From positions 81,871 to 145,870 of IMG/VR virus record IMGVR_UViG_3300020201_000009: DNA of 64,000 nucleotides, one strand, 5' to 3'. The first letter of the stretch is position 1; the number at the start of each line of letters is the position of its first letter. Shown in pieces: positions 1,955 to 58,024 of the stretch. The translations under genes and the position numbers were made by a program. Origin of the DNA: a virus. The notes below the pieces were generated by a model. It had not been told where the DNA came from, did not search any database, and was given only the letters and a program-made list of their open reading frames with translations.

Positions 1955-2572
1955 ATGGAAAAAATCAGCTATTGCTCTCTTGAATTTATAGTTGGAGAGC
2001 ATACTTATTGGCTTCGCAGTAATTGTGCTGGAAAGACTAAAGATCCTTACTTTCTTTTTGTTAAATTACCAAAAGTTTTATTTTTGGGTAAAGAGCTGAT
2101 TGAATCCAAATTAATTTCCCCTCATACGGGGATGTATGTTTTAAGTAAACAAGGATTGACTCGTAGATATCTAATGTTTGATAGCGGTGGCCCCCCACCA
2201 GAAAACTATGTCCCCGATTTAAATTTTGACTTGGAAGAGTTTGAAACGATTAGATGGCAAGATATGTTTTGGTTTTTAAGGGAAAATGGTTATACAACTC
2301 AAGAGCTTACGTCTTTTTGGATCAGGCATATTGTACAAACAAAAGACGAAGAATCAAAGGAGCAAACCAAATATGTTATTAGCGAATTTTTGCCCTCCCA
2401 AGGTGGCCTATTGTCATTTATGTCCCTCGGTCAACACCCCGATTTTAGTATTTCTTGGGACATTTCACAAAATTTCTCATTAAAAGGTTTGTCATTAAAA
2501 GGTTTCGATACGGAATTGAAAAAATTAGAAATAGTTTCAATCTTTTATGCTAAAAATTATTGGTATGTCTGA
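1955..2572 (+). CDS. hypothetical protein
   Basis: 205-aa ORF tiling the operon. Confidence 0.7.
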   Translation: MEKISYCSLEFIVGEHTYWLRSNCAGKTKDPYFLFVKLPKVLFLGKELIESKLISPHTGMYVLSKQGLTRRYLMFDSGGPPPENYVPDLNFDLEEFETIRWQDMFWFLRENGYTTQELTSFWIRHIVQTKDEESKEQTKYVISEFLPSQGGLLSFMSLGQHPDFSISWDISQNFSLKGLSLKGFDTELKKLEIVSIFYAKNYWYV

Positions 2573-3353
2573 AGAAGTTCTTGGTGTCTTTTATGAAAAC
2601 GGTTCTGGAAAATCAATTCTTACGAATTGGTCTCTAAAAGAAGTCGAAGACGCGGGAGATGGCTGTCCCGTTTCTCTTGTTCAACTCGCCAAAGAAGAGG
2701 GACTTAAGGAAATATTGGTGATCAGTTCTAATTTTAGAACGTTTATTCCCCTATTAGAGAATATGGATAAGATTGGGGTAAAACTGACTTTTGGCTTAGA
2801 GATTTTGATGACCAAAGATGCTGATGATCATTCAGATATTTCTCGTTGGTCTAATTATAAGGTTATTGTAATAGCCAAGAATTCCAAGGGGCGATTAGAT
2901 TTGTTTAAAATTTTCTCCGCTTGGAAAACGCGGAAAGAGAATAAATATTACGATTTTCGTTTTGATGAAAAACAATTATTACCCTTACTTACTCAAAATT
3001 TACAACTGGTATATCCATTCTTTAATTCTCCAATAGCCAAAAATCTGTTAGTTCATAATTCTAATATCGTTCCAAATCCGCCACCTGATACAATTCTTTT
3101 TAGAGAAGTCGATTCGGAGCATCCGCACGAGGATATTATTAATTCAACTTTGAATCGTTATAACGGCGATAAAAGATTCAGGGAAATCCGAGTAAAAAGT
3201 ATCTATTATAAGAACAGGGAGGATTTTAAGAAACTCCTTGTATTTAAAACAATTTTAAGCGGAGACGGTAATTTTAGTGCGCCAGAAATGTCGTATTGTT
3301 GTTCAGACGCTTTTTGTTATGAGTCTTTAAAGGAAGTAAATAAAAAAGTATGA
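2547..3353 (+). CDS. stand-alone PHP-like domain of DNA Pol III alpha (probably non-catalytic; start may be 2565)
   Basis: GKSILT, LAKEEGLKE, FGLEI, IAKNSKGRLDL match the DnaE PHP pattern; metal-binding His residues not evident. Confidence 0.75.
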   Translation: MLKIIGMSEEVLGVFYENGSGKSILTNWSLKEVEDAGDGCPVSLVQLAKEEGLKEILVISSNFRTFIPLLENMDKIGVKLTFGLEILMTKDADDHSDISRWSNYKVIVIAKNSKGRLDLFKIFSAWKTRKENKYYDFRFDEKQLLPLLTQNLQLVYPFFNSPIAKNLLVHNSNIVPNPPPDTILFREVDSEHPHEDIINSTLNRYNGDKRFREIRVKSIYYKNREDFKKLLVFKTILSGDGNFSAPEMSYCCSDAFCYESLKEVNKKV

Positions 3354-4062: not shown

Positions 4063-6681
4063 ATGAGTTTCTTAAAAGAGTGCGAACCTTACGTAATCGA
4101 AAATTACGGATATGTGCGTTTGCCCGAAATCGTAATTACTTCAGCGCAAAAACAAGATCTTGGATTAGAGGATACTGCGACAAACCGAGAGTTTATCACC
4201 GCTTTAGCGCGTCGGGGATTTGGGAAGTATGGAAAGAAGATTGATAAAAAGAAATACAAGACCTATGGGGATCGGGTAAAGTATGAATTGGATTTATTGG
4301 ATGAATTAGGTTTTATCGATTATATTCTTCTCGTTTGGATGGTTATCCATAAAGCCAGAGAGCTAAACGTTTTTATTGATTACGGAAGAGGCTCCGTAGC
4401 CGGTAGTTGCGTTTGTTGGTTATTGGGTATTTCTGGCGTTGATCCAATTAAATACGGCCTTTTCTTTGAAAGATTCGTATCTCGTGCTCGTGCGGGAATC
4501 AAACTTGTTGATGGGGTTGTTTATTTAAAGGGCGATCTTTTAGCCGATATTGATGTTAATTTAGGTGATGGTAGATCGGCTATTGTGGAATGGTTGAAAA
4601 CTGTTTATCCGGGTAAGGTGGCGAATATTTTAAATCTTTCCACATTTACTACAAAGATTCTATTAAAGGATGTTTATAAGAATCTTGAAGAGGCCGATGA
4701 AAGAGAGGCTAGACGTATCGCGGATATGGTTGAAGTGAAATTTGGTATAGCCCAAACGATTGATGAAGCCTATGCCGCCAATCCAGACTTTAAGCTCTGG
4801 TGTGACGATCATAAAGAAGTAGTAGCTATCTCAAAGGGGCTTTCGGGTCTAGTCAGACAAGCATCGACCCATGCATCTGGTTATCTCGTATCTAATGTAG
4901 CCTTATATGATTTAATTCCCCTAGAGTTAACGAAAGACGGAGAATGGGTAAGCGGCTTTGATATGAGAGACGCTGCGAACTTTGTCACCAAATTAGACCT
5001 ACTTTCTCTCACGACAAATGCCGTGATCAAACGGGTACTTGAAGCAATTCCTGAGACTATCGATGAAATCAATGAAAAGCTAGAAGATGATCCCTTCATT
5101 TATAACATTTTACAAGATCGATATGCTCGTTATGGCATTTATCAAATTTCGGCGGACACTGGCTATAATGTTACAAGAAAGATTAAGCCAAAGAATGTAT
5201 TTGAGTTGTCTGACGTAAACGCTATAGCGCGTCCGGGGGCGCTCGCGTATCTAGACGGTTATGTTGAAAATAACCATCCCTGTGCGCATCCAGCTTTTGA
5301 ACCCGTGTTAAAAGAATCTCGGAACTATTGCCTTTATCAAGAACAAATGATGAAGCTTGCCGTCGTTATCGGTTTTACTTTAGACGAAGCTGAAATGTTG
5401 AGAAAAATAGTCGGTAAAAAATTAGTCGATAAAGTCAAAGAATGGAAAGAAAAGATTTATAATAAAGCTGAGCAAAATGGTTTCGAAAAAGAAATTGGAG
5501 ATATCTTATGGAAAATTTTGGAAGATTCTGCAAAATATTCGTTTAATAAATCGCATTCGCTTTCTACATCGTTTTTAACCGCGTTAACGGTTTATTTAAA
5601 GTATAAGTATCCAGTTCAATTCTTTTGGAGTTGTTTGATTTCCGCTAAAGATCTTGCGAGCGCTCACGATGAAATTACCGAGATTCAAAAAGAACTGAGA
5701 GATTTTAATATCAAACTTTTGCCGCCCGATATCAGTAAGAACTATCCGGATTTTACAATTGATGGGGCTAATATTCGTTTTGGTCTATCGTCCATCAGGG
5801 GCTTAAAAGACAAGAACTTAGATAAAGTAATCCTTCTCCGCAAGGAAAATGCGAATAAGTTGGAGTTATTTGAGGCATTACAGACAGCAAACATTCCAAT
5901 AAATGTAGCTACTGCGCTTATTCTCAGCGGTTGCTTAAATCAACTAAATATTACTCGCAGTCGTTTACTATTGGAATACGAATTTTATACACTCCTTACT
6001 GGGAAAAACGAAACTAATTTGGTCCATACAGTTGCACCCCATTATAACTTTGATGTTTTGGAAACTGTTAGTCAGATGGTCAAAAATCTTAAGGATGAAA
6101 AGGGAAAGCCCCTGATGAAAGAATCTAGACTGGAGACGATTAAAAAGAAATATTCTATATACAAAGAAAAATACCAAAGAAATTCGCAATTTGAAAAGTT
6201 AGCCTGTTACATTTATGAAAACGAATACCTCGGTTTCGCGTATTCAGAAAGTTTAAAACAGATTTATTCATCTAAAATTAATGATTTAGAGAGTACCTCA
6301 GATCTTCGTAAACTACCAGATAATAGCAAAGGAAGAGTGGCGGTTCTTATTGTTGATGAAGTAGAAAGAAGAATTTCCAAGAAGGGGTCGCCATATCTTC
6401 GGATCAATGGGAAAGATGACATGGGCTCAATTACTATAATGATGTTTATGGAGGAAAGAATCGAAGCTATGAATAAGAATAACGGTGGTCCTTTAGATGA
6501 AGGTGATATTATTGTATGTCATGTGGACAAGAAAAGCGGGGACACGTATTGGTCTAACAATATTGTAAGACAAGAAAACCCGATATTACTCAAGAAAAGC
6601 CAAGTGGAAAAAATTCAAGAAAAAGAAGAGAAGAAAAATAAAAAAGATCAATTGGAGAACGCGGTAGACGCCGCAGTTTAA
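4063..6681 (+). CDS. dnaE: DNA polymerase III alpha catalytic core (lacks PHP)
   Basis: GRGSVAGS, LFFERF, DIDV, HASG, KLDLL, YQEQ, YSFNKSH, IRFGL, C-terminal OB fold. Confidence 0.95.
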   Translation: MSFLKECEPYVIENYGYVRLPEIVITSAQKQDLGLEDTATNREFITALARRGFGKYGKKIDKKKYKTYGDRVKYELDLLDELGFIDYILLVWMVIHKARELNVFIDYGRGSVAGSCVCWLLGISGVDPIKYGLFFERFVSRARAGIKLVDGVVYLKGDLLADIDVNLGDGRSAIVEWLKTVYPGKVANILNLSTFTTKILLKDVYKNLEEADEREARRIADMVEVKFGIAQTIDEAYAANPDFKLWCDDHKEVVAISKGLSGLVRQASTHASGYLVSNVALYDLIPLELTKDGEWVSGFDMRDAANFVTKLDLLSLTTNAVIKRVLEAIPETIDEINEKLEDDPFIYNILQDRYARYGIYQISADTGYNVTRKIKPKNVFELSDVNAIARPGALAYLDGYVENNHPCAHPAFEPVLKESRNYCLYQEQMMKLAVVIGFTLDEAEMLRKIVGKKLVDKVKEWKEKIYNKAEQNGFEKEIGDILWKILEDSAKYSFNKSHSLSTSFLTALTVYLKYKYPVQFFWSCLISAKDLASAHDEITEIQKELRDFNIKLLPPDISKNYPDFTIDGANIRFGLSSIRGLKDKNLDKVILLRKENANKLELFEALQTANIPINVATALILSGCLNQLNITRSRLLLEYEFYTLLTGKNETNLVHTVAPHYNFDVLETVSQMVKNLKDEKGKPLMKESRLETIKKKYSIYKEKYQRNSQFEKLACYIYENEYLGFAYSESLKQIYSSKINDLESTSDLRKLPDNSKGRVAVLIVDEVERRISKKGSPYLRINGKDDMGSITIMMFMEERIEAMNKNNGGPLDEGDIIVCHVDKKSGDTYWSNNIVRQENPILLKKSQVEKIQEKEEKKNKKDQLENAVDAAV

Positions 6682-10832: not shown

Positions 10833-11202
10833 AACGGGATTAAAAATAGTATTAGAAAAAGATTTTATAAAATACTATAAGTGGTTAGTGGAATCCCATA
10901 CGTATAAAACAATACAGCTTATTTGCCCTAAACACGGCGCGCATATTACAATCGTATCGAGCAAATTACATAAAGAGTTTGATAGGATAAAATTAAGTCA
11001 GTATAACAATCAGTTAGTCAGTTTTATATACAACCCAGAGGATATCAGAGTCGGCGGCAATGATTTTACCAATTATTGGTTGCCAGTTTTGTTTCCTCTT
11101 GGAGATCAGATTAAGATAGACCTAGGTATAGTCGAAAGTGACTTTCTAGGTTTTCATATTACAATAGCAAATAATAAAAATAAAGCAAGGTATAATCAAT
11201 GA
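10792..11202 (+). CDS. 2H phosphoesterase
   Basis: Two HxT motifs, GAHITI and GFHITI, about 70 aa apart. Confidence 0.75.
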   Translation: MKSIILERKLILDETGLKIVLEKDFIKYYKWLVESHTYKTIQLICPKHGAHITIVSSKLHKEFDRIKLSQYNNQLVSFIYNPEDIRVGGNDFTNYWLPVLFPLGDQIKIDLGIVESDFLGFHITIANNKNKARYNQ

Positions 11203-12566
11203 AGTTATCAGTTAAAGCAGAAAATACAAATTACGCAGCGGAAATATTCCTACTACCGAAACCATGTAAACACCCAAATGCCGATAAGCTTTCTTTAATT
11301 AATTTTAAAGGAAATGTAATCATTACCGGGATGAATTCCCGCGAGGGTGATTTATATGTTTACTTTCCTTTGGAAACCGCTATTAATAAAGAATATCTCT
11401 CATGGTCTAATTCTTTCAGTCACCCAGAATTAAATGCGAACACGAAAGTGCAGGGGTTCTTTAATGACGCTGGGAGAGTGAGGGCGGTAAAGTTGCGATC
11501 TCAACCTTCGATGGGTTATATTGTCCCACTTACCGATTTAATATTATGGTTGGATGCAAAGAAAATTAAATGTTCGGTTGAAGATTTTACGGTTGGTACA
11601 GAGTTTGATTATATTGACGAAAAGATTGTTTTGTGTGAAAAGTATGTCAATATTGAAGCTCTGCGTAAATTAGACAGTCTTACTAGAAATAATTCGAAAA
11701 AGGGAAAGGTAAAGAGAACGTCTAAGTTAGTTGACGATCAATTTAGGTTCCATATTGATACCGAACCTCTCAAGAAAAATATCCACCTTATTAAGCCCGA
11801 AGATAATATTACCGTATCGTATAAAATACACGGATCTTCAGCTGTCTACGCCCATATTCTAGTCAAACGTAAGCTGTCCACTCTTGATAAAATCGCCCGT
11901 TGGTTCGGGGTAAAAGTGGAAGAGACTAAATATGACTACGTATATTCAAGTCGCAAAGTTGTAAAAAATGAATATGAAGTGGAAGAAAAGCAAAACCTTC
12001 ATTATTACGATTCTAATATTTGGAGTCTTACTGGAAAAATTGTAAATGATTCTATCAAACCTGGAATTACCTTATATGGAGAATTGGTTGGGCAAACACC
12101 ATCTGGCAAATGGATTCAAAAGAATTACGACTACGGGACATTGCCGAATCAGCAAGAGTTTTATGTATATCGTATTTCAATTACAAATGCCAAAGGAGAT
12201 GTTTTTGAGTTCACAACAGAACAAGTCATCTCCTACTGCTCGATGCATGGTCTAAAAATGGTGCCGATTTTCTATCGCGGCAAAGCTAAAGATCTATTCC
12301 CAGAACTAAGTATAACAGAACATTGGAATCAGAATTTCTTAGATGCCTTACTAAAAAAATATACGGAGAAAGATTGTTATATGTGTACTAATAAGGTTCC
12401 AGAAGAGGGTATTGTTGTCGCAAAAGACGGCGTTACATTTACACCTTTTAAACTGAAATCTTTTCGTTTTCTTGAGGCCGAGTCGGTTCAACTGGACTCC
12501 GGGGAAATTGATATGGAGAGTGCAGAAAGCGTTGCGCCCGTAGCTGATCCAGAACCGGCAAAATAA
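11199..12566 (+). CDS. ATP-dependent RNA ligase (DRB0094/Rnl2-like)
   Basis: HPNADKL N-terminus; motifs I KIHG, III YGE, IIIa FYVY, IV EGIVV, V KLKS. Confidence 0.9.
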   Translation: MKLSVKAENTNYAAEIFLLPKPCKHPNADKLSLINFKGNVIITGMNSREGDLYVYFPLETAINKEYLSWSNSFSHPELNANTKVQGFFNDAGRVRAVKLRSQPSMGYIVPLTDLILWLDAKKIKCSVEDFTVGTEFDYIDEKIVLCEKYVNIEALRKLDSLTRNNSKKGKVKRTSKLVDDQFRFHIDTEPLKKNIHLIKPEDNITVSYKIHGSSAVYAHILVKRKLSTLDKIARWFGVKVEETKYDYVYSSRKVVKNEYEVEEKQNLHYYDSNIWSLTGKIVNDSIKPGITLYGELVGQTPSGKWIQKNYDYGTLPNQQEFYVYRISITNAKGDVFEFTTEQVISYCSMHGLKMVPIFYRGKAKDLFPELSITEHWNQNFLDALLKKYTEKDCYMCTNKVPEEGIVVAKDGVTFTPFKLKSFRFLEAESVQLDSGEIDMESAESVAPVADPEPAK

Positions 12567-20027: not shown

Positions 20028-21530
20028 ATGCTACAAATACTGCCAGTAATTCAAAATGACTTTTATAAGCAAGGTCATTTTAAAATGTACCCAGAAGGTA
20101 CAACAAAAATCTATAGCAACCTGACTCCACGGAAAAGCCGTATTCCCGGTATAAATCATGCCGTACTTTTTGGAACACAATATTTTATTAAAGAATATCT
20201 AATTAAACAATGGAATGATAATTTTTTTACCAAAAAATGGGAAGATATATCACTAGAGTATACAACGATCATTAACTCTACTCTTGGCCCCGATGCAATT
20301 TCGATTAATCACGTTCACGAGTTACACAAGCTTGGCTATCTCCCACTTTCGATTAAGAGTTTACCGGAAGGTTCGAAAGTCCCTATTCGTTGCGCGTGCT
20401 TGACCATTACGAATACGGTAGATCATGCTTATTGGCTTGTTAATTTCTTGGAAACCATCCTTTCAACTGTCACTTGGTCGCCTTCGACTGTAGCAACTAT
20501 TGCTCAGGAATTGAAGAGAGTTTTAATGAAGTACGCAAAAGAAACTGGAAACGAGGCATTTGTACAATGGCAGGGGCATGATTTCTCCATGCGCGGGATG
20601 TCTAGTTTGGAGTCAGCCTGTGTCAATGGCGGCGCTCATTTAACTTCTTTCACGGGCACGGATACTATTCCAGCCATCCAGTGGTTAAAAGAGTATTATT
20701 GCGCCGATTATACAAAGATGCTGGTGGGTGCCAGTGTGCCAGCTACAGAGCACTCTATTATGTGCATGGGTAGCCAAGAAGGTGAGTTATCGACCTTTAA
20801 ACGTTTACTCGATTTATTTCCAAGAGGAATTCTATCTGTTGTATCCGATACATGGTCGCTGATGAAAGTTGTTCTAGAAATCCTGCCAGCACTAAAAGAG
20901 CAAATATTAGCTCGTGAGGGGACTCTTACTATTCGCCCTGATTCATTTTGGACAGATCCAGTAGATTGCCTATGCGGGTTTGATGGTTATCACCCCCAAA
21001 TGGCGAATATGGGAGCGGCTGAGATTGAAGTTGTACGTAAAGGTCTTATTGAATCTCTTTGGGATTTATTCGGCGGCACGGTCAATATTAAGGGCTATAA
21101 AGAGTTAGACCCTCACATCTTTGCTATCTATGGAGATTCTATCACAATTGATCGCGCAACGAAAATTTCAGAGAGGCTTAAAGAAAAGGGGTTTGCTTCC
21201 ACAAACTGTTGTTACGGTGTGGGTTCCTTTAGCTACCAATTTAACACAAGGGATGTACTTGGATTTGCTGTTAAAGCGACATATGGAGTAGTTAATGGAG
21301 AGGCCCGCAATATCTTTAAAGATCCAATTACAGATGATGGAATGAAGAAGTCAGCAAAGGGTCTTTTAAGAGTCGATAAAATTAACGGAGAATATGTAAT
21401 GAGAGATTGCGTTAGTATTGAAGAAGAAAAGGGTGGCGAACTATTAGAAGTATTTCGTGATAGTAAACTTTTAATTGAAACCACGCTGACAGAAGTTCGC
21501 CATCGTATTAATGAAGGTATCGACATTTAA
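20028..21530 (+). CDS. nadV: nicotinamide phosphoribosyltransferase-family protein (NadV; likely NARP1 Namat)
   Basis: DFYK.GH, HDFSMRG, PATEHS, SVVSDTW, IRPDS, YGDSIT, KDPITDDG.KKSAKG. Confidence 0.93.
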   Translation: MLQILPVIQNDFYKQGHFKMYPEGTTKIYSNLTPRKSRIPGINHAVLFGTQYFIKEYLIKQWNDNFFTKKWEDISLEYTTIINSTLGPDAISINHVHELHKLGYLPLSIKSLPEGSKVPIRCACLTITNTVDHAYWLVNFLETILSTVTWSPSTVATIAQELKRVLMKYAKETGNEAFVQWQGHDFSMRGMSSLESACVNGGAHLTSFTGTDTIPAIQWLKEYYCADYTKMLVGASVPATEHSIMCMGSQEGELSTFKRLLDLFPRGILSVVSDTWSLMKVVLEILPALKEQILAREGTLTIRPDSFWTDPVDCLCGFDGYHPQMANMGAAEIEVVRKGLIESLWDLFGGTVNIKGYKELDPHIFAIYGDSITIDRATKISERLKEKGFASTNCCYGVGSFSYQFNTRDVLGFAVKATYGVVNGEARNIFKDPITDDGMKKSAKGLLRVDKINGEYVMRDCVSIEEEKGGELLEVFRDSKLLIETTLTEVRHRINEGIDI

Positions 21531-30397: not shown

Positions 30398-30474
30398 GCG
30401 CGCATAGCTCAATTGGATAGAGCGACAGATTTCTACTCTGTAGGTTGAAGATTCGATTTCTTCTGCGCGTACCA
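30398..30474 (+). tRNA. tRNA-Arg(TCT)
   Basis: Cloverleaf; ACAGA-tt TCT ac-TCTGT; encoded CCA. Confidence 0.95.
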
Positions 30475-31404: not shown

Positions 31405-31536
31405 CTTTCCTTTTCTATATTATATAAACACATATTGGTTACTATCTAAAAATAGTAATTCAGTCTTGCTGAGGGTTGTAGACCACCTCAATAAAAACGG
31501 TACATTAATTTTTAGGTTTAACAATTCAAATTCAAA

Positions 31537-32292
31537 ATGAAACTACACGAATCGCTAGCTGTCAACACAAGTATCGAAACACAAGCCGGTAAGGTAAGAT
31601 CCGAATTGGCTAATTCTTTCCAAAGCAAGGGACACCTCTTTACAGAGAAACTTGTTACATTCTTTCCCAATGCAGAGGGGCAACCGCCGATTATTGAATC
31701 CCAGAGTAAAATTCAGACCACGGTTCGAAATGAACTTGCTCTGATTACACCATTCCTTGTCAAGGCTATTGACTCTGCTTATCAGATTGCAGAGGCCAAT
31801 ACAGAGGCAAGGGCGGATATTATCTTAGAGGGGGAAACAACACCGATCCTTACCGGTATTCCCGCTACCTCTCTGCTCGAACTTGAGAAGAGACTTGCAG
31901 AAGTCGCAACATTGATTAATGCAATTTCTACAATCGACCCAGCGAAGGCTTTTGTAGCTGATAATGATAAAACGGCTGGATACTATAAAGCGGCCATTGT
32001 CAACAAGCCTCGTACCAAGAAAGAGAAAGTTGTACTTATTCGCTACGCGGCAACCGTTGAACATCCAGCGCAAACAGAGCTGATTGATAAAGATGTCGAA
32101 ATTGGCCGGACACAAGAACAAGAATGGTCCGGACTTATTTTGCCAGTTGAAAAGTCCCAATTGTTGGAGCGCGTCGAAATTATGCAGAGAGCAGTAAAGG
32201 CCGCTCGTTCCCGCGCCAATGAACAATTGGTTGATAGAGAAAAGAAGATTGGTAATACAATCATTGGTTACATCTTCCAAGTTAAAAAGTAA
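31537..32292 (+). CDS. uncharacterised helical protein of a widespread bacterial/phage family (recalled as DUF7873-like)
   Basis: KL....AV, AN..ARAD, P.T.LL.LEK.L, AT.EHPAQ, WSG, AVKAAR..AN. Confidence 0.8.
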   Translation: MKLHESLAVNTSIETQAGKVRSELANSFQSKGHLFTEKLVTFFPNAEGQPPIIESQSKIQTTVRNELALITPFLVKAIDSAYQIAEANTEARADIILEGETTPILTGIPATSLLELEKRLAEVATLINAISTIDPAKAFVADNDKTAGYYKAAIVNKPRTKKEKVVLIRYAATVEHPAQTELIDKDVEIGRTQEQEWSGLILPVEKSQLLERVEIMQRAVKAARSRANEQLVDREKKIGNTIIGYIFQVKK

Positions 32293-32295
32293 AAA

Positions 32296-32612
32296 TTTGG
32301 GTGTCTCGGCTTCACGCCGAGATTCTCAGGCTTAGGGTTATTGTTAGGTTTACTCATATAAAAGTTTAAGTTATTAACCCAAAAGTTCAAAACACATATA
32401 GAAGTTACCAGTAGACATATTAATATTTAAACCGAAAACAAAGATTCAATTTCTTTCGAAGGCGCCATTTTTGTATTTGTCAGTCAATGCTTTCGTCGTA
32501 TAGCGGTATTACGTCGGGATCAAGTTAAAAATTAATACGGGTTTGCTGATGAAGAGTTAAAAAAACGCTCTATATAATATCGGGGCTAGTCGCGTGCTAG
32601 CGGTCTAGCCCC
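32296..32612 (+). ncRNA. large structured RNA containing a circularly permuted tRNA domain (YrlA/Y-RNA-like)
   Basis: T-arm, acceptor 3' strand and GCCA precede the acceptor 5' strand and D-arm; long closing stem; 6-nt periodic repeats; 3' hairpin. Confidence 0.75.
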
Positions 32613-32626
32613 ACTTATTTTCAGTC

Positions 32627-33146: not shown

Positions 33147-33221
33147 GGCCATGTCATCTAGTGGTTAAGATACACGGTTTTCATCCGTGGTACGAGAATT
33201 CGATTTTCTCCATGGCTACCA
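33147..33221 (+). tRNA. tRNA-Glu(TTC)
   Basis: CACGG-tt TTC at-CCGTG; CCA. Confidence 0.95.
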
Positions 33222-33348: not shown

Positions 33349-33422
33349 TGGAGCGTGGTGTAACGGTAGCACAGGAGACTTTGAATCTCTTAGAGAAATT
33401 TCGATTATTTCCGCTCCTGCCA
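33349..33422 (+). tRNA. tRNA-Gln(TTG)
   Basis: GGAGA-ct TTG aa-TCTCT; unpaired 1:72; G73; CCA. Confidence 0.95.
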
Positions 33423-34710: not shown

Positions 34711-34785
34711 GGGGTCGTAGCTCAACGGTAGAGCAGTTCCCTTTTAAGGAATTGGTTGTGGTTTCAAATACCACCGACCCCACCA
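34711..34785 (+). tRNA. tRNA-Lys(TTT)
   Basis: GTTCC-ct TTT aa-GGAAT; CCA. Confidence 0.95.
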
Positions 34786-36958: not shown

Positions 36959-37298
36959 ACCTGCCACGAACCAACCACGGAATTAAAATGAAGATTGCGA
37001 AAAGAGTTTTTATTTGGGATTGTATAGCGGTTGTCAGCTTACCCATTCTTATTCTTATTTTTTCGATACCCGAATTGAGAGAAACAGAATCTAGAAATTA
37101 TCTAATAACCGCTCTACTGATATTATCAATTTTTCCATTGTATTTCGATGGATCGAATCCCCGATAAAGCAAATAAATAGCGTAACAAAATTGTAACAAA
37201 AGGCTGGGGGGAATTGACCCTTGACTCATGAGGGATTCCCCTAGAGTCTCTTCCTCAGTTCAGAGCTAACAGCTTTGGCGCAAAAAAAACAAAAAAAA

Positions 37299-38228
37299 AT
37301 GGATTTGCAACCAACTTTAGATATTAAATCCGTACTGGAAACAGTCGGAACAAAATTAACTGATGAAAAAACTCTAACAGATGCTTTAATTAGTATCAAT
37401 GCTAATTTTACACCCCAAAGGGTAGATAACTATTATCTCTTTGGAGACCAAGCCTATAAGTCAGGAAAATGCGAAATAATTCGTAGTGATAACGGTAAAA
37501 GCCTCGGAACGATGGGGGAGAAATATAACATGGTTTCTAATCAAGAGGCTTTCTCGGTCTTAGCCGATATTGTCAAATATGGGCACGCTGTTTATGACCG
37601 GGGTGGAGAAGTGAAAGATAAATATTTCCTTAGTGTGAAACTTCCAATTTGTATAGCTCCGAAATGTAGGCCAAATGATTTGATTGAAATGCATTTTACG
37701 GGATTCAATTCATTCAATGGTGATATGGGGTTGTTATTTACCCTAAACGCCACTAGAAAATTTGGTAATACAATGTTTCACGCATTATTGAGTAATTTAT
37801 CAAAAGTTCGACACTCTGCTAAAGCCAAATCGAAACTAGATGAGAGTAAAGCCCATTTGGACTTTATTAGTAAAGAAACAAACGTTCTCCAAGCAAAACT
37901 GGATCTTCTCTGTGATATTCCTTGTAAAGAACAGGACGTAAGAGATATTTCCTCTTATATTTTGAAAGTCAAAGACGGCAACGAGGCCACGACAAGAGGA
38001 CTACGCAAAATTGATAAAATAGTAGAGTTGTTCTACGACAAATCAATTGGAAATTTAGGCGAGACTAGATATGATGCTTTTGTGGCTTTCAATGGTATGA
38101 TTGACCATTTTTCCACGAATAAGGAAACAACTGGAGGAACGAGGGACGAAAACAGATTTGAATCATCTTTAACGGGAGAAAATTCCAAACTCAAACTTGC
38201 CGCGCTAGAGGTTTTGCTACCAAATTAA
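37299..38228 (+). CDS. DUF932-like phage/plasmid protein
   Basis: LG.....Y..V.N.EAF, NSF.G, RHS, T.YDAF. Confidence 0.75.
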   Translation: MDLQPTLDIKSVLETVGTKLTDEKTLTDALISINANFTPQRVDNYYLFGDQAYKSGKCEIIRSDNGKSLGTMGEKYNMVSNQEAFSVLADIVKYGHAVYDRGGEVKDKYFLSVKLPICIAPKCRPNDLIEMHFTGFNSFNGDMGLLFTLNATRKFGNTMFHALLSNLSKVRHSAKAKSKLDESKAHLDFISKETNVLQAKLDLLCDIPCKEQDVRDISSYILKVKDGNEATTRGLRKIDKIVELFYDKSIGNLGETRYDAFVAFNGMIDHFSTNKETTGGTRDENRFESSLTGENSKLKLAALEVLLPN

Positions 38229-56485: not shown

Positions 56486-58024
56486 ATGTCACTCGTAAAT
56501 TTCAATAGTAAAAAAGTTATCGTCCCGTCTGAATATCAAATAGCCGTGTATGAACACACGTCCAACGGCAGGGGGTCAGCATATATTGACGCTGTGGCCG
56601 GTAGTGGTAAAACTACAACCATCGAACATTGCGCGACATTGATTTCTCCTAGTGAGGAAACAGTGTTTCTAGCGTTTAATAAGAGAATTGTAGAAGAGCT
56701 ACAAAAGCGTTTACCAAGCCATATACACGCGGCAACGTTTCATAGCGTATGTTTCAAGGCTCTTCGGAAGAAAAGCCATACTATCAATATGAATGCCGAT
56801 AAGGTAAAGATTCTCGCATTGAAGAATCTCAAGGCCACCCATGGTAAATATATTACTACGGCCTGTATGTTGGTGTCCAAAGCAAAGGTAACCGGCCTTG
56901 GTATATTTGAACCAATTAGCAATGACGGGTTCGTTGCTATTGCAGAGCATTTCAATATTGAATTGCCCGATGAAGAGGATAAACTGTCAAAGTGCTTAGA
57001 GGCGGCGACCATGCTGATGAATGATAACATTTCGGCTGGTGAACAGTCTACACCGTTTATTGACTTCGATGATATGTTGTACATGATTTTGTATTATGAT
57101 GTAAGAATGCCGCAATTTGACAACATCGTCATTGACGAATCTCAGGATACAAACAAGATTCAAAGGTTTATATTAAAGAAAATGCTAAAGCCCGGTGGTA
57201 GGTTAATTGCCGTTGGTGATGAAAAGCAAGCCATATATGGTTTTCGTGGATCGGATTCCGAAGCCATTAAGGCTATTAAGGAAGAGTTCGCTTGTAAGGA
57301 GTTTCCTCTTTACTATTGCTATCGTTGCTCCAAGGCAGTGGTGAAATTTGCGCAAAAGATTGTTCCATATATTAAAGCGCCGGACACCGCAATCGAAGGG
57401 CAAGTTATCGAGGCAGGAATTATTGATAAACAACAATTTCTCTCTACAGACGTCATACTTTGCCGTAATACAAAACCTTTGATTGATTTCGCATTCTACC
57501 TTATTGGTAAGGGTATTGGCTGTAAGGTTTTGGGTAAGGATATCGGTGATGATTTGATTCACTTGGTAGAGAAAATGAATTGTTATAATTGCGTCACTCT
57601 CCAAGAGAAATTGGAAAATTATGGACAAAGAGAGATGAAGAAATTCCTTACGAAATATAAGGAAGAAAAGGCCGAGGCTATTAAAGATAAGATTGATTGT
57701 ATCTTTGCCATTATAAAGTCTCTACCGCTAGATCAGCAGTCAATTTCATTATTGAAAATGAAGATTGCTAGTATGTTTTCCAATGATACATCTGGATTAC
57801 TAACGCTAGCAACGTCACATCGCTCCAAGGGTCTGGAGTGGCAACGTGTATTCGTATATCGTCCCGAGCTTATGCCGTCTAAATACGCCAAGCGCGAATG
57901 GCAATTACAACAGGAAGCGAATCTTCAATATGTAACCTATACGCGGGCCAAAGAGATATTGGTAATTCTAGATGGTGAAGTACCGGAGCGCGCAGATGGT
58001 TTCCAATATAACCCACATGCTTAA
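56486..58024 (+). CDS. UvrD/Rep-like SF1 helicase
   Basis: AVAGSGKTT, DESQD, VGD..QAIYGFRG, YRCS, CRN, H.SKGLE, YV..TRAK. Confidence 0.95.
   Translation: MSLVNFNSKKVIVPSEYQIAVYEHTSNGRGSAYIDAVAGSGKTTTIEHCATLISPSEETVFLAFNKRIVEELQKRLPSHIHAATFHSVCFKALRKKSHTINMNADKVKILALKNLKATHGKYITTACMLVSKAKVTGLGIFEPISNDGFVAIAEHFNIELPDEEDKLSKCLEAATMLMNDNISAGEQSTPFIDFDDMLYMILYYDVRMPQFDNIVIDESQDTNKIQRFILKKMLKPGGRLIAVGDEKQAIYGFRGSDSEAIKAIKEEFACKEFPLYYCYRCSKAVVKFAQKIVPYIKAPDTAIEGQVIEAGIIDKQQFLSTDVILCRNTKPLIDFAFYLIGKGIGCKVLGKDIGDDLIHLVEKMNCYNCVTLQEKLENYGQREMKKFLTKYKEEKAEAIKDKIDCIFAIIKSLPLDQQSISLLKMKIASMFSNDTSGLLTLATSHRSKGLEWQRVFVYRPELMPSKYAKREWQLQQEANLQYVTYTRAKEILVILDGEVPERADGFQYNPHA

What the first reader, a model, noticed from the sequence alone, without database searches (positions are those of the whole stretch)
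31537..32612. Candidate new RNP system: uncharacterised 251-aa protein plus a ~320-nt RNA with a circularly permuted tRNA (Y-RNA-like, no Ro60 in view)
Seen: directly after the stop codon, tRNA parts occur in permuted order. CCGA (32432), T-arm AAAGA-TTCAATT-TCTTT (32440-56), acceptor 3' strand CGAAGGC, G, CCA (to 32467), a 21-nt linker, acceptor 5' strand GCTTTCG (32489), U8, D-arm GTA-TAGCGGTAT-TAC, then TCGG (32514). The anticodon arm is replaced by a long closing stem (CAGTAGAC/GTTTGCTG, TATTAAT/ATTAATA). A 5' domain (TTTGGGT/ACCCAAA, TCTCGGC hairpin) and a 3' GGGGCTAG/CTAGCCCC hairpin flank it. Known: T-arm, acceptor, D-arm order on a closing stem is the architecture of bacterial YrlA Y RNAs, which partner Ro60/Rsr, and of two-piece tmRNA precursors. 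No TROVE gene is in the window. Inference: the adjacent helical protein is the RNA's partner; the retained CCA suggests RNase P/3' processing into a two-piece, chargeable, anticodon-less tRNA mimic, possibly a decoy for tRNA-targeting defences.
Basis: partly seen in the sequence, partly recalled or inferred. Interest (0 to 1): 0.92.

Follow-up and report, generated by a model that had tools for sequence, protein, structure and literature searches.

The report
Phage tRNA-mimic RNA beside DUF7873 gene
A phage gene of unknown function (DUF7873) is followed by a folded RNA of about 330 bases whose tip is a transfer RNA with its halves in swapped order and no anticodon; the same gene-RNA pair followed every relative of the gene I tested, so it is probably an undescribed RNA-protein unit related to bacterial Y RNAs.

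Summary
Every permuted tRNA part is present, including a 7-bp acceptor stem, G-CCA, the T-loop UUCAAUU and a D-loop with GG.

The protein is Pfam DUF7873. A covariance model built here finds the same permuted tRNA-like module just downstream, on the same strand, in 90 of 90 DUF7873 loci: the window, 6 cultured phages, 80 IMG/VR contigs and 3 MAG contigs. No other neighbouring gene is conserved. All helices covary. CCA follows the acceptor strand in 71 of 87 distinct RNAs, and U precedes the 5' strand in 57 of 87.

The RNA starts at the stop codon. It also carries 6-nt-periodic repeats, a conserved bulge and a terminal hairpin with a conserved loop.

It is YrlA-like but not an ordinary YrlA. 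The window has no Rfam match, no Ro60-binding motif, and no TROVE, Band-7 or RtcB gene in the 92%-complete genome. Ro60 is not irrelevant, though. Six of 30 long DUF7873-bearing phage contigs carry TROVE, and one has Ro60, DUF7873 and the RNA in a row.

This scan has found the same pair before on other DNA. I found no paper describing it.

The parts
31537..32292 (+). DUF7873 protein gene (251 aa). There is no Shine-Dalgarno sequence; the start codon is preceded by UAGGUU UAACAA UUCAAA UUCAAA.
   Evidence: Pfam PF25283, 193.9 bits against a cut-off of 27. It is a single copy in the genome. The family has 2,565 clusters at 50% identity. The AF2 model has pLDDT 84.8 and no convincing fold match.
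32296..32383 (+). 5' domain closed by helix P1 (UUUGGGU 32296-302 with ACCCAAA 32377-83). It holds a GC hairpin at 32304-22.
   Evidence: RNAalifold on 13 clade RNAs recovers P1 (UUUCGG/CCGAAG). The motif begins at or within a few bases of the stop codon in 10 of the 12 clade RNAs aligned.
32328..32372 (+). 6-nt-periodic repeats: AGGCUU AGGGUU AUUGUU AGGUUU ACUCAU, then AAGUU at 32362 and again at 32368.
   Evidence: ARGNU occurs 61 times against 6.2 expected over 13 clade RNAs. The spacing is 6 or 12 nt in 34 of 48 cases.
32409..32431 (+). 5' strand of the long closing helix (CAGUAGAC, UAUUAAU) plus unpaired AAA.
   Evidence: Duplex energy between the flanks is better than shuffles (z < -2) in 62 of 90 loci. 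For the window it is -17.7 kcal/mol, z = -3.2.
32432..32517 (+). Circularly permuted tRNA-like module, in this order: anticodon-like stem strand CCGA, variable AAAC, T-arm, acceptor 3' strand, G-CCA (to 32467), 21-nt linker, acceptor 5' strand (from 32489), U8, D-arm, UCGG.
   Evidence: Pair counts are 95.7% paired, with compensatory changes in 20 of 20 pairs. The covariance-model hit is 76.4 bits.
32518..32526 (+). Conserved bulge GAUCAAGUU (family consensus A-U-Y-A-R-R-N-U) opposite AAA. It is a further copy of the repeat motif.
   Evidence: Column counts over 56 RNAs: A 37, U 47, Y 52, A 46, R 48, R 43.
32527..32581 (+). 3' strand of the closing helix (AUUAAUA 32531-37, GUUUGCUG 32541-48), with a small A-loop hairpin at 32553-71 (AGAG-UUAAAAAAACG-CUCU).
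   Evidence: An A-loop hairpin of the form AGAGCUAAAAAGCUCU recurs at the same place in clade relatives.
32582..32621 (+). Terminal GC-rich hairpin (GGGGCUAG UCGC GUGCUA GCGG U CUAGCCCC) followed by a U-rich tract. It is the likely terminator and has a conserved apical loop.
   Evidence: The loop pattern GWGNWA / GGWW recurs in the clade and in the phages Pam2, NiceHouse, RHph_TM21B and Ziko.
30398..30474 (+). tRNA-Arg(TCT), the upstream member of the tRNA array that holds the cassette. tRNA-Glu 33147-33221, tRNA-Gln 33349-33422 and tRNA-Lys 34711-34785 lie downstream.
   Evidence: ARAGORN and Rfam. 44 of 89 related loci have tRNA genes in their flanks.

Best explanation
The region 31537-32621 is one cassette: the DUF7873 gene, then as its 3' extension a structured RNA of about 330 nt that belongs to the YrlA class of tRNA mimics.

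Shown:
- The RNA fold is conserved and covaries.
- The RNA follows DUF7873 in every locus tested.
- Nothing else in the neighbourhood is conserved.
- This genome has no Ro60, Band-7 or RtcB gene.

Inferred:
1. Gene and RNA are co-transcribed, because the first conserved helix begins at the stop codon and a terminator-like hairpin ends the unit.
2. The tip folds into a tRNA-like L shape.
3. Host RNase P cuts before G32489 and exonucleases trim back to CCA32467. This would give a nicked two-piece RNA held together by the acceptor stem and the closing helix, as shown for M. smegmatis YrlA.
4. DUF7873 binds the conserved parts that are not tRNA-like: the hexamer repeats, the AUYARRNU bulge and the terminal loop. 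The 6-nt period suggests an oligomer.
5. The particle presents a tRNA look-alike to tRNA-handling enzymes. It would act in the same RNA surveillance or repair field as Ro60 with its Y RNA, probably protecting or servicing tRNAs during infection.

The confidence figure is for the claim that protein and RNA form a functional unit of this kind. The particular biochemical role is far less certain.
For: - Pfam DUF7873.
- Permuted modules were seen by eye in Rhizobium and Gordonia phages. My strict pattern scan found them in 78 of 86 loci, against 5 (upstream) and 2 (reverse strand) in controls. The covariance model found them in 90 of 90.
- The anticodon-like stem was not required by my scan. It is 78-85% paired, with 14-24 double changes per pair. 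RNAalifold finds the same helices independently.
- CCA is present in 71 of 87 RNAs and U(-1) in 57 of 87.
- No other gene neighbour is conserved; the best candidate is in 8 of 89 loci.
- The RNA starts at the stop codon.
- The hexamer repeats are about ten-fold enriched.
- The genome has no TROVE, Band_7 or RtcB gene.
- Only 1 of 13 near-complete DUF7873 phage genomes has TROVE.
- There is a precedent for RNase P cutting and CCA addition on a YrlA (PMC4201824).
- Ro60, DUF7873 and the RNA are contiguous in L017.
Against: - There are no data on transcription, RNA ends, binding or phenotype for this genome.
- The DUF7873 model matches no known RNA-binding fold.
- Conserved H, D and E residues could mean it is an enzyme rather than a scaffold.
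- Synteny alone also fits a purely cis-acting 3' UTR.
- The host's Ro60 cannot be excluded, because the host is unknown.
- An earlier check within this scan priced the 'Ro60-independent unit' reading at only 22/100.
Confidence: 0.5

Rival explanations
1. The RNA is simply a divergent YrlA-type Y RNA that works with Ro60, supplied by the host or by the phage. DUF7873 would be an accessory factor, for example the unknown factor proposed to bind the tRNA-like effector domain of YrlA, or merely a neighbour.
For: - Rfam YrlA gives sub-threshold matches of 36-38 bits both to DUF7873-linked RNAs and to the RNAs upstream of a phage TROVE gene.
- My model also hits TROVE-linked RNAs (L008, L092, L093).
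- TROVE is present in 6 of 30 long DUF7873 contigs and in the Rhizobium phage lineage, against 91 of 50,697 phage records overall.
- L017 has TROVE, DUF7873 and the RNA in a row, with no other Y-RNA candidate.
- The gene starts without a Shine-Dalgarno sequence. That would fit a Bacteroidota-like host, and B. thetaiotaomicron has TROVE (control). This host clue is an inference.
Against: - The window RNA has no YrlA match even at E <= 10.
- The window has no GNCGAAN0-1G motif, and in relatives the motif occurs only at about chance level.
- 12 of 13 near-complete carrier genomes lack TROVE.
- The RNA tracks DUF7873 in 90 of 90 loci, not TROVE.
- Phages that carry both have a separate, lower-scoring RNA next to TROVE.
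Confidence: 0.2
2. The RNA is a cis-acting 3' UTR of the DUF7873 mRNA. A tRNA-like end made by RNase P and CCA trimming would stabilise or regulate the message, and there would be no trans-acting particle.
For: - The conserved structure starts at the stop codon and is always on the same strand, downstream.
- No promoter-like site lies between gene and RNA.
- tRNA-like 3' ends cut by RNase P are known for other transcripts (10.1101/312249).
Against: - A 330-nt multi-domain RNA with hexamer repeats, a conserved bulge and a conserved terminal loop is much more than an end-protecting element needs.
- Some lineages carry two or three modules, or an extra normal-order tRNA-like domain.
- After an RNase P cut, the 3' piece would be separated from the message.
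Confidence: 0.15
3. The RNA is a translation-active molecule: either a two-piece tmRNA, or a permuted tRNA gene that is processed into a real, chargeable tRNA.
For: - A free NCCA end is possible, and the acceptor stem, T-arm and D-arm are complete.
- The bulge reads A-U-Y-A-R-R, like an anticodon loop with a YAR triplet.
- The window contains an open frame, GCU GAU GAA ... UAA.
Against: - ARAGORN and Rfam find no tmRNA.
- The short frame is not conserved in relatives.
- The D-arm is full length, unlike that of tmRNA.
- No anticodon hairpin can be closed.
- The discriminator and acceptor stem vary freely.
- No ligase or endonuclease is conserved nearby.
- Some carriers have a separate tmRNA gene.
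Confidence: 0.04

Closest known systems
YrlA (Y RNA-like A, Rfam RF02553), the Ro60/Rsr-bound tRNA mimic of bacteria and some phages, especially the M. smegmatis form (Chen et al. 2014, PMC4201824; Wang et al. 2018, 10.1101/312249)
   Same: - The same permuted order on a closing stem that replaces the anticodon arm: T-arm, acceptor stem, D-arm.
- The tRNA tertiary core is kept.
- The 7-bp acceptor stem matches M. smegmatis YrlA, which RNase P cuts and which gains CCA.
- Relatives give sub-threshold Rfam YrlA matches.
- Phage Ro60 genes also lie in tRNA arrays.
   Different: - The partner gene is DUF7873, not Ro60.
- There is no Ro60-binding motif.
- CCA is encoded rather than added, and is kept in 82% of the RNAs.
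- It has a 5' domain of hexamer repeats, a conserved AUYARRNU bulge and a conserved terminal loop.
- The window scores nothing against RF02553.
[quoted passage not shown] I know it only from how 10.1101/312249 cites it; the paper itself was not held.
   Same: A tRNA-like RNA paired with a protein other than Ro60, proposed to be interchangeable with YrlA in RNA repair loci.
   Different: - That RNA resembles a normal tRNA and is linked to Band-7 and RtcB.
- This genome has neither gene.
- Only Rhodococcus phage NiceHouse has a band-7-like gene close by.
Two-piece (circularly permuted) tmRNA
   Same: The gene order is the same: T-arm and CCA-bearing acceptor strand first, then the 5' acceptor strand. 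RNase P processing yields two base-paired pieces.
   Different: There is no tag reading frame and no pseudoknots, the D-arm is full length, no SmpB link was seen, and ARAGORN and Rfam detect nothing.

Membership tests
YrlA / bacterial Y RNA (Rfam RF02553) | tRNA-like domain with T-arm, acceptor-like stem and D-arm in permuted order on a closing stem | tested here: met
YrlA / bacterial Y RNA (Rfam RF02553) | Reaches the family's gathering score (69 bits) | tested here: not met
   The window has no match at E <= 10. Relatives L001 and L005 score 36-38 bits.
YrlA / bacterial Y RNA (Rfam RF02553) | Ro60-binding helix with the conserved GNCGAAN0-1G motif (PMC4201824) | tested here: not met
   Absent from 32293-32626. 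Present in 29 of 86 relatives at scattered places, which is about chance.
YrlA / bacterial Y RNA (Rfam RF02553) | Encoded beside, or in the same genome as, a Ro60/TROVE gene | tested here: not met
   There is no TROVE gene in the 92%-complete genome. Among relatives it is present in 6 of 30 long contigs and in 1 of 13 near-complete ones.
YrlA / bacterial Y RNA (Rfam RF02553) | Physically bound by Ro60 | not testable with these tools
   This needs a pull-down. The host, and therefore the host's Ro60, is unknown.
DUF7873 (Pfam PF25283) | Full-length match above the curated cut-off | tested here: met
   193.9 bits against 27, covering residues 2-248. Search of the genome gives 193.1 bits.
Two-piece tmRNA | Tag reading frame with a resume codon, and detection by ARAGORN or the Rfam tmRNA models | tested here: not met
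   The short frame in the window is not conserved in the clade alignment.
Permuted tRNA gene (Cyanidioschyzon type) | The two halves reconstitute a complete anticodon arm and a consistent amino-acid identity | tested here: not met
   There is only a 4-bp stem with a 9-nt bulge opposite AAA. The discriminator and acceptor stem vary freely.
Band-7-associated tRNA system | Adjacent Band-7 protein and RtcB ligase | tested here: not met
   There is no Band_7 or RtcB gene in the genome.

The most novel reading that the evidence does not exclude
DUF7873 and its RNA form a particle that does not need Ro60. RNase P cuts the RNA into a two-piece, CCA-ended, anticodon-less tRNA mimic, and an oligomer of the protein reads the 6-nt repeats. 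During infection the particle engages tRNA-recognising host machinery, such as tRNA-targeting defence enzymes or repair and processing enzymes. That would make it a new class of phage and bacterial RNP parallel to Ro60 with its Y RNA.
Probability: 0.2. Interest if true: 0.85.

Novelty: new variant of a known kind. Interest (0 to 1): 0.7.

Why it matters
Ro60 is the only known partner of tRNA-like Y RNAs, and how those RNAs use their tRNA domain is still unclear. Here a related RNA travels with a different protein family that nobody has studied. That family has about 2,500 sequence clusters and occurs in many phages, often inside their tRNA gene arrays, and also in bacterial chromosomes.

If the pair is a working particle, it would be a second, widespread way of using tRNA mimicry. 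It would also give a small two-part system, present in phages that are already in culture, for asking what such mimics do during infection.

The partial link to Ro60 found here, including one locus with Ro60, DUF7873 and the RNA in a row, suggests the two systems act in the same pathway.

Tried and rejected
- **tmRNA.** Rejected: ARAGORN and Rfam find nothing, and the short frame is not conserved.
- **Permuted gene for a real tRNA.** Rejected: no closable anticodon arm and no conserved identity.
- **Ordinary YrlA with Ro60 elsewhere in the genome.** Rejected for this genome.
- **Close relatives from a single-protein query.** Searches of viral and metagenome contigs found none. The alignment query worked in viral contigs but gave only 3 loci in genome contigs.
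- **Function of DUF7873.** Nothing convincing from Foldseek against PDB (best E = 0.02), VIA-align wide (best Z = 8.0 at rmsd 8.7; the rest are helical hairpins), the ESM Atlas, or a profile search against PDB sequences. PHROGs gave no match.
- **Neighbour clustering.** No third component was found.
- **Literature.** 'DUF7873' occurs in 0 papers. Searches for permuted tRNA with phage, and for Y RNA with phage, found no description of the pair. Burroughs and Aravind 2016 and the 2020 Ro60 review were not held.
Full report
**1. Observation**

- The stop codon is at 32290-92.
- The tRNA parts run in permuted order: CCGA 32432-35, T-arm 32440-56, acceptor 3' strand 32457-63, G-CCA to 32467, a 21-nt linker, acceptor 5' strand 32489-95, U8, D-arm 32498-512 and UCGG 32514-17.
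- The closing-stem pairs, the 5' helix UUUGGGU/ACCCAAA, the GC hairpin and the 3' GGGGCUAG/CUAGCCCC hairpin are all real.

The 334-nt stretch folds better than all 100 shuffles (z = -3.6). ARAGORN and Rfam see only four ordinary tRNAs around it: Arg, Glu, Gln and Lys. Even at E <= 10 the stretch matches no YrlA or tmRNA model.

**2. Genome and protein**

The window is the last 64 kb of a 145,870-bp IMG/VR virus record estimated to be 92% complete. The record has no TROVE (Ro60), Band-7 or RtcB gene. It has one copy of the protein gene and one copy of the RNA.

The 251-aa protein is a full-length member of Pfam DUF7873 (193.9 bits).
- **Size of the family.** It has 2,565 clusters at 50% identity with E <= 0.001, all about 245-270 aa among the best 150.
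- **Structure.** The AlphaFold model (pLDDT 84.8) has four long helices and a long beta-hairpin. It matches no solved fold convincingly and has no relative of known structure by sequence profile. The ESM Atlas gave no named neighbour.
- **Conserved residues.** Across the family, down to about 30% identity, these include K2 L3 H4 E5, D79, N88, D94, P109-A-T111, E117, D142, K162, T173, H176-P-A-Q179, K206, R212, R224 and N228. They could mark an active site or an RNA-binding surface. I cannot tell which.

**3. Is the RNA tied to the protein?**

Yes.
- **Cultured phages.** DUF7873 occurs in 75 GenBank phage records from very different hosts. In all six I opened (Rhizobium RHph_TM21B, Gordonia Ziko, Rhodococcus NiceHouse, Pseudanabaena Pam2, Klebsiella KpLz-2_45, Vibrio D505) the gene is followed by an unannotated gap, or by tiny ORF calls, holding one to three permuted tRNA-like modules.
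- **Pattern scan.** In 80 IMG/VR loci plus these six, my strict pattern-and-pairing scan found a module within 1.3 kb downstream, on the same strand, in 78 of 86. The controls gave 5 upstream and 2 on the reverse strand.
- **Covariance model.** A model built from 56 modules (A2, R1) found a hit of 43-106 bits directly after the gene in all 90 loci. That includes the eight the strict scan had missed and three MAG contigs.
- **Cellular copies.** Two of the MAG loci lie among cellular genes (NamZ, a short-chain dehydrogenase), so the pair is not confined to phages.
- **No third component.** Clustering all flanking ORFs showed no other conserved neighbour. The best non-artefact cluster is in 8 of 89 loci.
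- **tRNA arrays.** About half of the loci have tRNA genes in their flanks (44 of 89), and two have a tmRNA gene.

**4. Structure support**

On A2, 95.7% of cells form standard pairs, against 63% in shuffles and 36-46% when partners are slid by 1-3 columns. All 20 pairs show compensatory changes.

The T-arm, acceptor stem and D-arm were required by my scan, so those counts are partly circular. The 4-bp anticodon-like stem was not required. It is 78-85% paired, with 14-24 double changes per pair.

RNAalifold on 13 full-length RNAs of the window's clade, aligned by MAFFT alone, recovered the same four helices plus the outer helix P1.

The invariant columns are the tRNA tertiary core (U8, A14, G18 G19, U54 U55 C56, A58) and CCA. 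The module should therefore fold into a tRNA-like L shape.

**5. Anatomy beyond the tRNA module (window clade)**

- **Start.** In most of the clade RNAs aligned, the conserved AAUUUCGGGUG (UUUGGGU in the window) begins at or within a few bases of the stop codon. No promoter-like site lies between gene and RNA. Co-transcription with the gene is therefore the simplest reading.
- **5' domain.** P1 encloses a variable GC hairpin and a run of 6-nt-periodic repeats, ARGNUY. In the window these are AGGCUU AGGGUU AUUGUU AGGUUU. The motif occurs 61 times against 6.2 expected over 13 RNAs, and its spacing is 6 or 12 nt in 34 of 48 cases.
- **Closing helix.** A long irregular helix carries the tRNA-like module.
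- **Bulge.** Directly 3' of the module a bulge keeps the consensus A-U-Y-A-R-R-N-U (GAUCAAGUU in the window). It is another copy of the repeat motif.
- **3' side.** The 3' strand holds a small A-loop hairpin. The unit ends in a GC-rich hairpin plus a U tract. The apical loop of that hairpin (GUGCUA here; GWGNWA or GGWW elsewhere) is conserved even in distant phages.
- **Variants.** Some clade members insert a further tRNA-like domain in normal order before the terminal hairpin. Other lineages have two or three permuted modules, and the first of these looks like tRNA-Leu.

**6. Processing**

The acceptor stem is 7 bp. CCA follows the discriminator in 71 of 87 distinct RNAs, where chance is 1 in 64. 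U precedes the 5' strand in 57 of 87. Linkers range from 3 to 147 nt with no conserved sequence.

These are the features of an RNase P substrate with an encoded CCA end. M. smegmatis YrlA, the one YrlA with a 7-bp stem, is cut by RNase P and carries CCA in vivo (PMC4201824; 10.1101/312249). A nicked two-piece form is therefore plausible, but it is inferred.

Nothing supports charging. The discriminator is mostly a pyrimidine and varies (T33, C28, G17, A9). The acceptor sequences vary freely. The window has U3-G70, not G3-U70.

**7. Relation to Ro60**

The RNA is YrlA-like but fails the membership tests for YrlA.
- The window has no Rfam match, and relatives reach only 36-38 of the 69 bits needed.
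- The Ro60-binding motif is absent from the window and occurs at about chance level in relatives.
- This genome has no TROVE gene.

Ro60 is not unrelated, however.
- Rhizobium phage RHph_TM21B has a TROVE gene 5 kb downstream, with its own permuted modules.
- Of 30 long DUF7873-bearing IMG/VR records, 6 have TROVE, though only 1 of the 13 that are at least 90% complete.
- In four of those six the TROVE gene lies within about 7 kb of DUF7873.
- In L017 the order is TROVE (822-2405), DUF7873 (2483-3250), RNA, with no other candidate Y RNA.
- In GenBank phages TROVE is rare, 91 of 50,697 records by tblastn. Ten of those are Rhizobium records, and the ones listed are DUF7873-bearing phages.
- Two TROVE-bearing phages I checked (RsoM2USA, Atuin) lack DUF7873.
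- Phage Ro60 genes also sit in tRNA arrays, which may explain part of the proximity.

I read this as two related RNA-protein modules that act in the same field, not as one depending on the other. Lineages are not independent in these counts, and the host's Ro60 is unknown.

**8. Mechanism**

My best-supported explanation (confidence 0.5) is a self-contained protein-RNA unit. The steps are set out under Best explanation, with each marked as shown or inferred.

The rivals are:
- a divergent Y RNA that serves Ro60 (0.2);
- a purely cis-acting 3' UTR (0.15);
- a translation-active tmRNA or true tRNA (0.04).

**9. Novelty**

- 'DUF7873' appears in no paper of the held library.
- Searches on YrlA, permuted tRNA and phage Y RNA found no description of this pair.
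- The nearest ideas in print are Ro60-YrlA and the predicted Band-7-associated tRNA of Burroughs and Aravind 2016. I know the latter only through 10.1101/312249.
- This scan has flagged the same DUF7873-RNA pair many times on other DNA. Those notes include the hexamer repeats and, in other genomes, reported transcription. I found the repeats independently before reading them.
- An earlier in-scan check priced the 'Ro60-independent unit' reading at 22/100.

- the 90-of-90 result with a covariance model;
- the CCA and U(-1) counts;
- the conserved bulge and terminal loop;
- the multi-lineage link to TROVE, including one locus with all three components in a row.

**10. Limits**

The closest relative (80% identity) could not be fetched, and no expression or RNA-end data could be obtained.

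Noticed in passing
window 11199-12566 (+): A 455-aa ORF matches the RNA_ligase family (PF09414, E = 1.9e-9) and weakly the PHA02142 OB-fold. The phage may therefore have RNA repair capacity about 20 kb upstream of the tRNA-mimic cassette.
   Followed up: no
window 31509-31536 (+): The DUF7873 gene has no Shine-Dalgarno sequence. Its start codon is preceded by hexamer-like units UAGGUU UAACAA UUCAAA UUCAAA that resemble the RNA's repeats. Most relatives have an ordinary GGAG site, and a few (for example L041) have clear hexamer runs there. Feedback control by the protein is possible but unproven.
   Followed up: partly
L017 822-3583: A TROVE (Ro60) ORF, the DUF7873 gene and the tRNA-mimic RNA lie head to tail on one strand. 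There is no other Y-RNA-like hit in the locus.
   Followed up: partly
L024, L028, L033, L035, L015, L016, L043, L044, L030 (about 60-140 nt after the permuted module): These clade members carry an extra tRNA-like domain in normal order (D-arm, anticodon arm, T-arm, imperfect acceptor stem, no CCA) between the permuted module and the terminal hairpin.
   Followed up: no
L002 4720-5188 (Gordonia phage Ziko genes 125, 126) and L006 3778-4020 (Vibrio phage D505 CDS 0061, 0060): Small annotated 'hypothetical protein' genes lie over the structured RNA, and Ziko gene 126 and D505 CDS 0060 overlap covariance-model hits. They are probably spurious CDS calls.
   Followed up: partly
L003 4368-5240 (Rhodococcus phage NiceHouse): A band-7-like membrane protein gene lies one tRNA gene downstream of the DUF7873 RNA. 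This recalls the Band-7-associated tRNA idea of Burroughs and Aravind.
   Followed up: no
L068 and L069 1658-2025: ARAGORN calls a tmRNA gene (tag DKSYALAA*) about 0.5 kb upstream of the DUF7873 gene in these phage contigs.
   Followed up: no
window 4063-6681, 20028-21530, 37275-38228, 56486-58024: Other recognisable genes in the window: a DnaE-like DNA polymerase III alpha subunit, a nicotinate/nicotinamide phosphoribosyltransferase, a DUF932 protein and a UvrD-type helicase. No close cultured relative of the phage was found with the polymerase.
   Followed up: partly
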